DNA of 64,000 nucleotides from Escherichia coli O157:H7 (GTDB lineage: Bacteria > Pseudomonadota > Gammaproteobacteria > Enterobacterales > Enterobacteriaceae): the NCBI RefSeq assembly GCF_013167455.1, contig NZ_CP038328.1, one strand, 5' to 3'. Numbering within the stretch: the first letter of the stretch is position 1; the number at the start of each line of letters is the position of its first letter. Below, piece by piece: positions 44,309 through 47,300 of this stretch. The position numbers were made by a program.

Positions 44309-47300
44309 TTATTGTGATAAAAAGCAACAAATTGGTAACATTTAACGTAGGGTATTAAGGCAAAGTGAGACAGGAAATGAATAACTAAAGCAACAGGTTA
44401 GGGGGGGATTACCATCAGAGAACAGATTATCTGGTCGATAAAAAACGGTAAATGGCTTCACTGCAAAATGACCGCTAGTAAACTAAATATATTATCTGCC
44501 CCGTTTTAGCGGGGCAGATATAACATTAAATTACAAATAGAGATAGTTCAGCGGTTCTCCTGTTTTCCCTAAAAGAAGAGCGCTACGCCCAGGAATATTG
44601 ATATTTAGAGTTCCGCCTCTAAGCATAAATGCTTTACCAGGGGGGATAATTTTTCGGGTATTATTAATAATAATGTTAACGCTATTACTCCCCATGTTTT
44701 TATATTTTCCAGGTTGCAATTTGTTAGGCCAGGCACCTTCAACTTCTTCGTTTCCTTTATTTATTATAACTAGTCCATCATGAGGAGAGTGATTAATGTT
44801 CACCGAATCCCCACGACTAAAGGCCAGAACGTTTTTAGTTGCAAATACACCCTCAAATGCGCTCCATATTCCTGCTTTATCTATATATAATGCGTGGAAT
44901 TCATTGTAGAGCTGCTGATAGGTAGAGCAACCTTTATTAAGCCACGCCTCACCGCCGACACGCGTCGACCCATCATAATTTTTAATTTCAGTCGTTGATT
45001 TTAATACTTGGCCATCCCAGTAAACTAAAGGCCTGCTGAACGGGAGAGCGGCCATATATGCCATTGCTAATTGTTCATCTTGTTGATGGTTAAATAGAAA
45101 GTCATTGAAAAGATTGCCATTGTTAGGAAAATCGTGGTTAATGTTAATCAATATCCGTCTTTTTGATGGGATGCTTGAGATTGTGGAACTCGGTTTTGAT
45201 GCAAGGGTTTGGAGATCGCCACCAAATGAAAAAGCTTTTATCGTCTTCATGAGCAATGAAAAATCAATGGCGCTTAAATCATCTCTTTCATAAAGCAGCG
45301 ATGACATTTGTTCTTCATCCAACTGGCAAGTTACCAGATATTCCATGTAATTCATAACGGCTTTTTCATGATATTTTGGGTTAAATAAGTTAGTATTGTG
45401 TAATCGCTCATTATAATTTTTAAGCGGTGGGGTTATTGATCTTTCTATTTGTTCATGTTTTGAGTGTTTTGCTGCATCGTAACGTAAACCTCGTACGCCA
45501 TATTTTCGCATTTCACGAACGTATTGATTTTGCAACATAATAACCTAGTCACTTTTGGGGGGGGTTTTAGGCATTCCATTTAAACGCTTTTCTTTTAATG
45601 CATGGAGGTTTTCCCATTCATCCTTAGAAATATTATCTTTACTTGCTTCGAAGTCTTTTGCTGTGAGATGTATATCTTCTGGATGGATTTGTTTACGTTC
45701 TTTTGTTACTGGATCTATAGTAAATGGAATCAAAACCTGACCTTGCCAATAGCCAGGGATACCACCTTCTATATCTTTACTGATCTTCGCTCGTATATCA
45801 GCAGAGGGATAATCCAGGTCATTTTTACCACTACCCCCGATTCCCATAAAGTTAAAGGTATAATCAGGAATGATATCGATACCAAATTTTTTAGCATCTT
45901 TAACCAATGCGATAAAATCCTGCAAATCTCCCATTGGATTATGGATGGTACAAAGATCTTCGGGTTGATAAGCGTGAAACCAGTAACCTTTTTCTTCTTC
46001 GGGAGTTTCTGGTCCGTCGGCGCGGAAAGTTGTCACTGGAGGGATTTGTATATACCCATAATGGCAACGTGCAAACTCAGACATATTTTCCCTGATTTGC
46101 TGGTAGGTGGCATTAAAAGCATGAAGAATCGCTTCGCCAGGTTTTTTGGGGGTGATGATTTCACATTGTGATTTCTGAACAGCAGTAAGGGATTTACGCT
46201 CAAGTGTTTGCCGTAGATGTTCTGGATTGATTAATATTTTAAATGTTTCTTGCTGTCCGGAAGGTGACGTCACGTTAATATTATATACATCGGCTGCTAG
46301 CTCATAGTCAGGAATGTTAATAGCATATGCAACATACTTATCTTTTGGGGACGGTTTGTCAGATATAATGTGAGTGAAATGTTCAGCTGGACCATACTGA
46401 TGAACACCGCTGTTATCACCTCTTTCAACCATTGTATCTCGTTGATAAACCCATATTTTCCCTTCTCCTATCCTGTCTGGCGCTGTAATGCTACGCTGTG
46501 CAGCTTTATTCAGCTCTCGGTAAGTTGTATCTGGAGAAAGGGAAATTTTATAATCGTTTTTTAACAGATCATTAATGACTTTTTCTGCGTGAAAAGTTGA
46601 TATAATTTCTCTGTCTTTTAAATCCTGAGGATAAACTCCACAAGCATTAATAATATTTGTTACACAGTTTAGATATTCTAATGTATTTAATTTGGAATTT
46701 AGATCCCCGTCAGTAATGTTCCATGATAACAATGAGGGGTTGTCGATAGGTAATTTTCTTGGTCCTGGTTTTATAGAAAACATAATAACGTTCCTCTAAT
46801 GGTAGAGTAATATGATGTATACGGAAACATAAAAATGTTTAATTGTTGTGAAAGTAATTGCAAACAGATGTCCTATTTTTATCCAATATTTATATGGAAA
46901 AGGATAATGCTTAAATCTGTTTTTTTAATTATCGATGTGGTCTGGAGAGGCAACTGTCAAAAATCGCTCATACGAAACTAATTATTAGCAGAATAAGTTC
47001 TATAAAAGAATATATTGCTATATGAAGTTTATTTTTATGGAGTGAAAAGTAACAGATATCATAATGATGCGAAAACTCTTCAGTTAATGTAATAAACTTA
47101 TATTATTAGATACAAAATCATTACAAAGTATCATTGAATCGATGATAACTATAGATTGTGCTAATTATTAACATTTGCTTGTTGACTGCGAGTATCGACT
47201 TTGCGGAATGGAGGTGGTGTCGGGTTTTATGTCGCATGTATTGACGACCCAGGATGGATGAGAACGCATAAAAATCTGTGATTTACATCATAAGATCATC

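What the first reader, a model, noticed from the sequence alone, without database searches (positions are those of the whole stretch)
44531..46783. GH13 alpha-amylase-like gene split by an in-frame amber codon just after a C8 homopolymer
The catalytic-domain signature is divided between two adjacent ORFs in the same frame (region-I-like GIDIIPDYTF upstream, GVRGLRYDAAKH at the start of the downstream ORF), separated only by TAG-GTT-ATT-ATG. A G8/C8 run lies 9 nt upstream of the TAG (45557-45564). This is either a nonsense pseudogene, as ygaQ is in K-12, or a case where suppression or reinitiation could still yield product.
Basis: partly seen in the sequence, partly recalled or inferred. Interest (0 to 1): 0.4.

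Follow-up and report, generated by a model that had tools for sequence, protein, structure and literature searches.

The report
Amber-stop pseudogene of ygaQ amylase in O157:H7
This is an ordinary, already-annotated dead gene: the E. coli O157:H7 copy of the alpha-amylase-like gene ygaQ was knocked out by a single C-to-T change at a DNA-methylation hotspot, and the nearby run of eight Cs is an incidental later change, not a switch.

Summary
On the minus strand, 46783..44531 is one 750-codon reading frame. It is broken only by TAG at codon 413 (45547..45545), 9 nt after a C8 run (45564..45557).

The window is E. coli O157:H7, and the gene is the orthologue of K-12 pseudogene ygaQ (b4462), between ileY and glaH. 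RefSeq already marks it "pseudo, internal stop".

O55:H7, the closest relative sampled, carries an intact copy 6 nt different, with CAG (Gln) at codon 413. E. albertii and more distant relatives are single ORFs.

The mutation is CCAGG→CTAGG at the inner C of a Dcm site, the classic 5-methylcytosine amber hotspot. The same change recurs on three other haplotypes.

The C8 run arose by A→C substitutions. The last of these came after the stop, because an atypical O157:H7 strain has TAG with C6. C7 (10 genomes) or C9 (1 genome) does not restore the frame.

The stop lies after region I and before all three catalytic residues (D436, E481, D551).

K-12 and 2396 genomes in total carry a different, older amber (W614*).

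Verdict: a young lineage-specific nonsense pseudogene, of low interest.

The parts
44531..46783 (-). Whole ygaQ-orthologous GH13 alpha-amylase-family pseudogene (2253 nt, 750 codons plus stop), 38% G+C in a 48% G+C window
   Evidence: PGAP: pseudo, internal stop; K-12 ygaQ b4462, same synteny
45545..46783 (-). 5' fragment ORF of 412 codons: N-terminal domain of unknown fold (aa 1-215), barrel strands beta1-beta3 including region I (D307 at 45863-45865, N311 at 45851-45853), and domain B
45545..45547 (-). In-frame amber codon TAG (codon 413), derived from CAG (Gln)
45544..45548 (-). CTAGG, the mutated form of the Dcm site CCAGG; the changed base (45547) is the inner, methylated cytosine
   Evidence: mechanism from PMC12606429; recurrence
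45557..45564 (-). C8 homopolymer (codons 407-409, T-P-P), derived by A>C substitutions from ACAACACCC; length varies slightly among O157 assemblies (C7 in 10, C9 in 1)
44531..45538 (-). 3' fragment ORF (335 codons from the pre-existing Met416): helix alpha3 onward, with region II (D436, 45476-45478), region III (E481, 45341-45343), region IV (H550-D551, 45131-45136) and the C-terminal beta-sandwich domain
44493..44520 (-). Terminator-like hairpin (11-bp stem, 7 G-C pairs) 10 nt after the TAA stop
47344..47419 (+). Flanking tRNA-Ile(CAU) ileY, which ARAGORN calls tRNA-Met(cat); it marks the edge of the low-G+C segment

Best explanation
The region is the O157:H7 allele of ygaQ. ygaQ is a horizontally acquired, AT-rich, H-NS-silenced gene for a divergent GH13 alpha-amylase-family glycosidase with an extra N-terminal domain.

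In the O157:H7 lineage, after its split from O55:H7, one C-to-T transition converted Gln413 (CAG) to amber (TAG). The changed base is the inner cytosine of a Dcm site (CCAGG to CTAGG). The most likely origin is therefore spontaneous deamination of 5-methylcytosine to thymine that escaped Vsr very-short-patch repair.

Translation now stops after 412 residues, between barrel strand beta3/domain B and helix alpha3. All three catalytic residues (Asp436, Glu481, Asp551) lie downstream, so no active enzyme is made and the gene is drifting.

The C8 tract is a by-product. The run grew by A-to-C substitutions from C5 (O55:H7) through C6 (PV15-279, which already has TAG) to C8 (typical O157:H7). It now shows occasional one-base length differences that cannot restore the frame.

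Shown: the substitution, its polarity, its age bracket, its recurrence, the fold, and the position of the stop relative to the catalytic residues. Inferred: the deamination chemistry and the loss of activity.
For: Identity and annotation:
- The window is 100% identical to O157:H7 genomes, and PGAP flags the gene as pseudo with an internal stop.
- The exact junction occurs in 283 genomes; 10 more have C7 and 1 has C9.

Polarity and age:
- O55:H7 CB9615 and RM12579 are intact and differ at 6 nt, including CAG413.
- Thirteen sampled alleles have CAG at codon 413.
- E. albertii (738 aa, 60% identity) and relatives at 33-39% identity are single ORFs.
- PV15-279 has TAG with ACACCCCCC plus an extra frameshift.

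Hotspot:
- The stop lies in CCAGG. Only 2 of the 56 possible transition routes to a stop codon in this gene are at Dcm inner cytosines.
- The same CAG413>TAG occurs on three other haplotypes (E275a, SY033, OkiPb01714). Each keeps its own flanking SNPs, the nearest at -13 and +68 nt.
- The second Dcm nonsense route, W685*, is seen in 3 genomes.
- A control non-Dcm CAG624>TAG is seen in none.
- dcm-vsr is present in 5367 of 5426 genomes, including O157:H7.
- The lacI CCAGG amber hotspots are described in PMC12606429.

Enzyme family and position of the stop:
- A profile search hits B. subtilis alpha-amylase 1BAG at E = 2.5e-53.
- The AF2 model (pLDDT 84) matches alpha-amylases at TM 0.72-0.79.
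- D436 and E481 are invariant and H550/D551 at least 90% conserved, and all lie downstream of codon 413.

Run length: neither C7 nor C9 reopens the frame.

Dispensability: W614* is in 2396 genomes, other lineages have IS3-associated deletions and frameshifts, and about 1200 genomes have no copy.
Against: - The deamination mechanism is inferred from sequence context and recurrence, not observed.
- Across 20 alleles there is no general excess of C>T/G>A polymorphism at Dcm sites (1 of 18 versus 104 of 833).
- Only one control site was tested.
- Loss of function is inferred from the fold. No expression or activity data exist for either fragment.
- Apart from the stop, the O157 allele is nearly undamaged. 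Alleles show dN/dS of 0.1-0.2, which mostly reflects history before inactivation. Residual use of a fragment therefore cannot be excluded on sequence grounds.
- An ATG with a weak AGG lies 6 nt after the stop, so some reinitiation is mechanistically possible.
Confidence: 0.9

Rival explanations
1. The gene still works as a two-piece enzyme. Ribosomes that terminate at TAG413 reinitiate at ATG416, 6 nt downstream, and the 412-aa and 335-aa fragments reassemble into an active barrel.
For: ATG416 is in frame 6 nt after the stop, with an AGG 5 nt upstream of it. The rest of the ORF is undamaged in typical O157:H7. Fragment complementation of (beta/alpha)8 barrels is known in principle (general knowledge).
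Against: - Met416 and its upstream AGG are present unchanged in all intact alleles, so nothing has evolved for reinitiation.
- The cut falls inside the catalytic domain, between beta3/domain B and alpha3.
- Members of the clade carry further disabling changes: PV15-279 has a frameshift at gene nt 2139, and there are C7 and C9 variants.
- The same stop also recurs in alleles that were already dead, as expected of neutral hotspot mutation rather than a selected architecture.
Confidence: 0.03
2. The amber codon is read through, by natural or tRNA-mediated suppression, to give a low level of full-length enzyme, so the gene is down-tuned rather than dead.
For: There is a single in-frame stop and the downstream frame is intact. 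All stop codons allow some basal read-through (general knowledge).
Against: - None of the window's six tRNA genes has a CUA anticodon. The rest of the genome was not examined.
- The codon is a recent CAG>TAG mutation, not a conserved recoding site.
- No conservation of the stop is seen outside the clone.
- Later frameshifts are tolerated in clade members.
Confidence: 0.03
3. The C8 homopolymer is a slipped-strand phase-variation switch that turns the gene on and off.
For: C8 is one of only two G/C runs of 8 or more in the 64-kb window. Run length differs among O157 assemblies: C7 in 10 genomes and C9 in 1.
Against: - The stop is in frame with C8. C7 runs into a stop at codon 446 and C9 into a stop at codon 412, so no run length restores the ORF.
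- The run is absent from intact alleles and was built by substitutions. TAG was already present at the C6 stage.
- The length variants may partly be homopolymer assembly errors.
Confidence: 0.01
4. Two separate genes are the ancestral state, and the 'intact' versions elsewhere are fusions.
For: Older annotations and a 2016 paper treat pieces of the K-12 locus as separate genes, ygaQ and ygaR (PMC4725251).
Against: - Single 700-820-aa ORFs exist in E. albertii and in relatives at 33-39% identity.
- The GH13 barrel spans the junction.
- The intact O55:H7 allele is 6 nt away.
Confidence: 0.005

Closest known systems
E. coli K-12 pseudogene ygaQ (b4462)
   Same: It is the orthologous locus: same 2253-nt length, same position between ileY and glaH, about 97% nucleotide identity, and also inactivated only by in-frame amber codons.
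   Different: The lesions are different and independent. K-12 has TGG>TAG at codons 111, 346 and 614, none at a Dcm site, and W614* is shared by 2396 genomes. O157:H7 has a single younger CAG>TAG at codon 413.
lacI amber hotspots at Dcm sites (Coulondre, Miller et al. 1978), countered by Vsr very-short-patch repair
   Same: It is the identical sequence change, CCAGG>CTAGG, turning CAG into TAG at the methylated inner cytosine. It recurs independently at least four times in natural genomes (PMC12606429).
   Different: Here it is seen as fixed natural polymorphism in a chromosomal accessory gene, not as laboratory mutants. The deamination step is inferred.
GH13 alpha-amylases of the B. subtilis, Pseudoalteromonas haloplanktis and animal type (PDB 1BAG, 1UA7, 1AQH, 8OR6)
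   Same: It has a (beta/alpha)8 barrel with domain B and a C-terminal beta-sandwich. Regions II-IV are present, and the Asp/Glu/Asp triad is conserved in the intact alleles.
   Different: - Identity is only 15-19% in structural alignment.
- Region I has Phe in place of the canonical His (N311-F312).
- The family is almost confined to Escherichia.
- The substrate is unknown.
Slipped-strand homopolymer phase variation (contingency loci)
   Same: There is a poly-C tract inside a coding region, with one-base length differences among isolates.
   Different: No tract length gives an open frame, and the tract formed in a gene that already carried the stop. It does not work as a switch.

Membership tests
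Nonsense (amber) pseudogene | The premature stop replaces a sense codon that is present in intact orthologues | tested here: met
   TAG413 versus CAG in O55:H7 (6 nt away) and in 12 other sampled alleles.
Nonsense (amber) pseudogene | The ancestral state is a single uninterrupted gene | tested here: met
   The gene is an intact 750 aa in many E. coli lineages, 738 aa in E. albertii, and 699-824 aa in distant relatives.
Nonsense (amber) pseudogene | The truncation removes essential parts of the protein | tested here: met
   The stop precedes D436, E481 and D551 and splits the barrel between beta3/domain B and alpha3. Loss of activity itself is inferred.
Nonsense (amber) pseudogene | No functional product in vivo | not testable with these tools
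   This needs proteomics or enzymology. Only indirect support exists: further frameshifts are tolerated in clade members.
Glycoside hydrolase family 13 (alpha-amylase family) | (beta/alpha)8 catalytic domain with domain B, followed by a C-terminal beta-sandwich | tested here: met
   The AF2 model (pLDDT 84, pTM 0.89) matches alpha-amylases at target-normalised TM 0.72-0.79 in Foldseek. Pfam gives Alpha-amylase_C at 3e-5 and Alpha-amylase at 5.6e-4.
Glycoside hydrolase family 13 (alpha-amylase family) | Conserved regions II, III and IV carrying the catalytic Asp nucleophile, Glu acid/base and Asp | tested here: met
   D436 (GLRYDAAKH) and E481 are invariant. H550-D551 are invariant in the 9-sequence alignment and at least 90% conserved in the 39-sequence one. 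The regions align to 1BAG regions II-IV.
Glycoside hydrolase family 13 (alpha-amylase family) | Region I motif D-x-x-x-N-H | tested here: inconclusive
   D307 and N311 are present, but the His is Phe312 in the Escherichia proteins (NF instead of NH).
Glycoside hydrolase family 13 (alpha-amylase family) | Alpha-glucan hydrolase or transferase activity | not testable with these tools
   No biochemical data were found for the intact protein. The only paper concerns the 110-aa K-12 fragment.
Dcm 5-methylcytosine deamination hotspot | C>T at the second C of CCWGG | tested here: met
   GAC CAG GTT became GAC TAG GTT, that is CCAGG>CTAGG.
Dcm 5-methylcytosine deamination hotspot | Recurrent independent occurrence, in excess over comparable non-Dcm sites | tested here: met
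   At least four haplotype backgrounds carry the change. W685*, at the other Dcm nonsense site, is present in 3 genomes. The control CAG624>TAG is absent. There is only one control, and no general Dcm-site excess appears among the 20 alleles.
Dcm 5-methylcytosine deamination hotspot | The host has an active Dcm methylase | tested here: inconclusive
   dcm-vsr is present and annotated in 5367 of 5426 genomes, including an O157:H7 strain. Methylation of this particular site was not measured.
Homopolymer phase-variable (contingency) gene | Some tract length yields an open reading frame | tested here: not met
   C7, C8 and C9 all end in stops, at codons 446, 413 and 412.

The most novel reading that the evidence does not exclude
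The CCAGG/CTAGG site at codon 413 might act as a slow, two-way mutational toggle. Dcm-dependent deamination switches the gene off at an elevated rate. Vsr, which is reported to promote CTAGG-to-CCAGG changes (PMC2715241), would switch it back on. O157:H7 populations would then keep a revertible copy of an otherwise intact glycosidase.

A second, separate possibility is that the 412-aa N-terminal fragment keeps a moonlighting activity of the kind claimed for the 110-aa K-12 YgaQ fragment (PMC4725251).
Probability: 0.03. Interest if true: 0.5.

Novelty: already known. Interest (0 to 1): 0.12.

Why it matters
It matters little for biology. It is one more lineage-specific gene loss on the O55:H7 to O157:H7 path, in an accessory gene that most E. 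coli have already lost or broken.

Its modest value is as a textbook-clean natural example of the Dcm 5-methylcytosine amber hotspot, because the same CCAGG>CTAGG stop arose independently in at least four lineages.

It is also a caution for annotation and for the literature. The two ORFs in O157:H7 and the 110-aa K-12 "YgaQ" protein are fragments of one GH13 gene, not genes in their own right.

Tried and rejected
- Phase variation through the C8 tract is rejected. C7, C8 and C9 all terminate, and the tract is derived, with TAG already present before its last step.
- Sequencing error is rejected. The exact junction is in 283 genomes.
- A search for the intermediate allele C8+CAG found no exact match in 5426 genomes.
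- No suppressor tRNA was found in the window.
- A test for a general excess of C>T/G>A polymorphism at Dcm sites across 20 alleles was negative (1 of 18 versus 104 of 833). It is uninformative, because most such changes are non-synonymous and the polymorphism is old.
- K-12's three ambers were checked for Dcm context. None is at a Dcm site.
- NCBIfam gave only sub-threshold hits to MalS-type models, and PHROGs gave none.
- The promoter scan found no more promoter-like sites than in shuffled sequence.

Full report
**1. The observation**

The gene lies on the minus strand. ORF listing and translation show two ORFs in one frame: 46783..45545 (412 codons) and 45538..44531 (335 codons).

The coding strand reads ...AAA ACC CCC CCC AAA AGT GAC TAG GTT ATT ATG TTG.... 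The G8/C8 run is at 45557-45564, and 9 nt separate it from the TAG at 45547..45545.

GIDIIPDYTFNF lies upstream and GVRGLRYDAAKH begins the downstream ORF.

**2. Where the window comes from and what the gene is**

The 2.5-kb region is 100% identical to several E. coli O157:H7-type genomes and matches 4209 of 5426 complete E. coli genomes.

In strain CDC#03-98, PGAP annotates exactly this 2253-nt span as [quoted passage not shown]. It sits between tRNA-Ile and glaH-lhgO-gabD. In K-12 MG1655 the syntenic 2253-nt feature between ileY and glaH is pseudogene ygaQ, b4462.

The gene has 38% G+C against about 55% in the adjacent glaH-lhgO genes and 48% for the window as a whole, and it abuts a tRNA. 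K-12 ygaQ has been used as an example of an H-NS-silenced, horizontally acquired gene with an intragenic promoter (PMC7229825).

**3. Polarity of the change**

Intact 750-aa alleles exist in many lineages: 88-3493, Br_167, CE10, Tig207, O145:H28, O121, CB209 and TUM10828. All have CAG at codon 413.

The decisive comparison is with O55:H7 (CB9615 and RM12579), the closest relative of O157:H7 among the sampled genomes. There the gene is intact and differs from the window at only 6 of 2253 positions. One of these is C1237T, which is CAG413>TAG.

E. albertii has a single 738-aa orthologue at 60% identity. The few more distant relatives, at 33-39% identity, are single ORFs of 699-824 aa.

**4. What the intact protein is**

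Single-sequence evidence is weak:
- Pfam gives Alpha-amylase at E = 5.6e-4 and Alpha-amylase_C at 3e-5.
- NCBIfam gives only sub-threshold MalS-type hits.

Profile and structure evidence is strong:
- A family profile hits B. subtilis alpha-amylase 1BAG at E = 2.5e-53, followed by other GH13 amylases.
- An AlphaFold2 model (pLDDT 84, pTM 0.89) superposes on Pseudoalteromonas, Drosophila, B. subtilis and mammalian alpha-amylases with target-normalised TM of 0.72-0.79.

In a 39-sequence alignment D436 (region II) and E481 (region III) are invariant, and H550-D551 (region IV) are at least 90% conserved. Region I keeps D307 and N311 but has Phe312 where GH13 enzymes usually have His.

In the model, codon 413 sits at the start of helix 412-427. 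This follows strand beta3 (303-308) and the long domain-B excursion, and precedes strand beta4 (432-435). The 5' fragment therefore lacks all three catalytic residues, and the 3' fragment lacks beta1-beta3.

**5. How the stop arose**

The ancestral sequence GAC CAG GTT contains CCAGG, a Dcm site, and the mutated base is its inner, methylated cytosine. CCAGG>CTAGG is the classic 5-methylcytosine deamination amber hotspot discovered in lacI (Coulondre et al. 1978, as summarised in PMC12606429).

Evidence that the site behaves as a hotspot:
- In the intact allele, only 2 of the 56 single-transition routes to a stop codon lie at Dcm inner cytosines, and the observed stop is one of them.
- The same change exists on the non-O157 run background in 5 genomes. 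These represent three structurally different haplotypes:
  - E275a, with W614* only;
  - SY033, with the K-12-type triple amber;
  - OkiPb01714, the IS3-truncated type.
- Each keeps its own flanking SNPs, the nearest at -13 and +68 nt. The change therefore arose at least four times independently.
- The other Dcm nonsense route, W685* (CCTGG>CCTAG), is found in 3 genomes.
- A control probe for CAG624>TAG at a non-Dcm site with fully conserved flanks found none.
- dcm-vsr is present in 5367 of 5426 genomes, including O157:H7.

Two caveats apply. Only one control was run. A crude test across 20 alleles found no general excess of polymorphism at Dcm sites.

**6. The C8 run**

The site is polymorphic by substitution only, never by length, among non-O157 alleles:

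| Sequence | Run | Alleles |
|---|---|---|
| ACAACACCC | C3 | K-12, Br_167, O104:H4, O121 and others |
| ACAACCCCC | C5 | O55:H7, Tig207, 88-3493, TUM10828 |
| ACACCCCCC | C6 | CE10, O145:H28, E. coli C, PV15-279 |
| ACCCCCCCC | C8 | typical O157:H7 |

The atypical O157:H7 strain PV15-279 has TAG with the C6 form. The stop therefore predates the last A>C change that produced C8. No genome has C8 with CAG.

Within the O157 clade, C8 is found in 283 genomes, C7 in 10 and C9 in 1. ATCC 43889, one of the C7 genomes, is annotated "frameshifted".

None of these lengths reopens the frame. C7 runs to a stop at codon 446 and C9 to a stop at codon 412. The run is incidental and is not a switch.

**7. 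Population context**

ygaQ is decaying across the species.
- An allele-specific probe finds W614* (TGG>TAG) in 2396 genomes.
- TGG at codon 614 is found in 1536 genomes, about 294 of which are O157:H7 with Q413*.
- About 1200 genomes have no match at all.

On the W614* background, further lesions accumulate:
- W111* and W346* in K-12 and E. coli C;
- a 1-nt insertion in O104:H4;
- IS3-associated 5' deletions in O111:H8, SE11 and OkiPb;
- K617* in OkiPb.

Pairwise dN/dS among alleles is 0.09-0.24. The gene was therefore under purifying selection for most of its history, and it is still intact in several pathogenic lineages.

**8. Rivals**

- Reinitiation at ATG416 is mechanistically possible. 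However, that Met and the AGG before it are unchanged from intact alleles, and the split falls inside the catalytic barrel.
- Suppression has no support. None of the window's six tRNAs is a suppressor, and the codon is a recent mutation.
- Phase variation and ancestral two-gene models are refuted, as set out in sections 3 and 6.

**9. Literature note**

A 2016 paper reports that the over-expressed 110-aa K-12 "YgaQ" confers mitomycin C resistance and has ssDNA nuclease activity (PMC4725251). That polypeptide is the first 110 codons of this pseudogene, up to W111*. My models give no structural support for a nuclease fold.

**10. Verdict**

The feature is a young, lineage-specific amber pseudogene that is already flagged in RefSeq.

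The added findings are accurate but unsurprising:
- the stop arose at a Dcm hotspot, with natural recurrence;
- the stop predates the last step that made C8;
- no run length rescues the frame;
- the inactivation is independent of the one in K-12.

Interest is low.

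Noticed in passing
window 45557-45565 (gene nt 1219-1227): The run site repeatedly gains C by A>C substitution in unrelated lineages, going C3, C5, C6, C8. E. coli C and K-12 differ at only 3 of 2253 nt, and 2 of those are here. This suggests run-extending misalignment (dislocation) mutagenesis or tiny conversion patches.
   Followed up: partly
L003 / L023 (K-12 ygaQ), codons 111, 346, 614: All three K-12 stops are TGG>TAG, and none is at a Dcm site. W614* is ancient and shared by 2396 complete genomes, including O104:H4, O111:H8, SE11 and E. coli C.
   Followed up: partly
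window 48171-49520 (+): A 449-aa ORF is annotated YpjCB family protein and is intact in O157:H7. The K-12 counterpart is an internal-stop pseudogene in PGAP annotation and is listed as separate ypjB and ypjC genes in MG1655. This is another gene of the same low-G+C island with lineage-specific decay.
   Followed up: no
window 53236-53243, inside ORF 50327-54397 (+): The only other G8 run in the window lies in frame (GKGGAM) within a 1356-aa repeat-rich ORF. The ORF looks like an autotransporter and occupies the position of K-12 ypjA. Its C-terminal tail looks unlike a beta-barrel domain, so it may be truncated.
   Followed up: no
L009 (O157:H7 PV15-279), gene nt 2139 = window ~44640-44645: A second homopolymer (C6) in the 3' fragment has lost one base in PV15-279, adding a frameshift to the amber stop. 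This is consistent with neutral decay after inactivation.
   Followed up: yes
[not shown]
   Followed up: partly
window 47344-47419 (+): ARAGORN calls this tRNA-Met(cat), but it is ileY, tRNA-Ile(CAU), as annotated in RefSeq. This is the usual lysidine-tRNA miscall.
   Followed up: yes
window 46781-46789 and 45536-45544 (-): Both ORF starts are preceded by the same sequence, so each reads GTTATTATG including the ATG. This is probably coincidence, since the second copy is an internal V-I-M in intact alleles.
   Followed up: no
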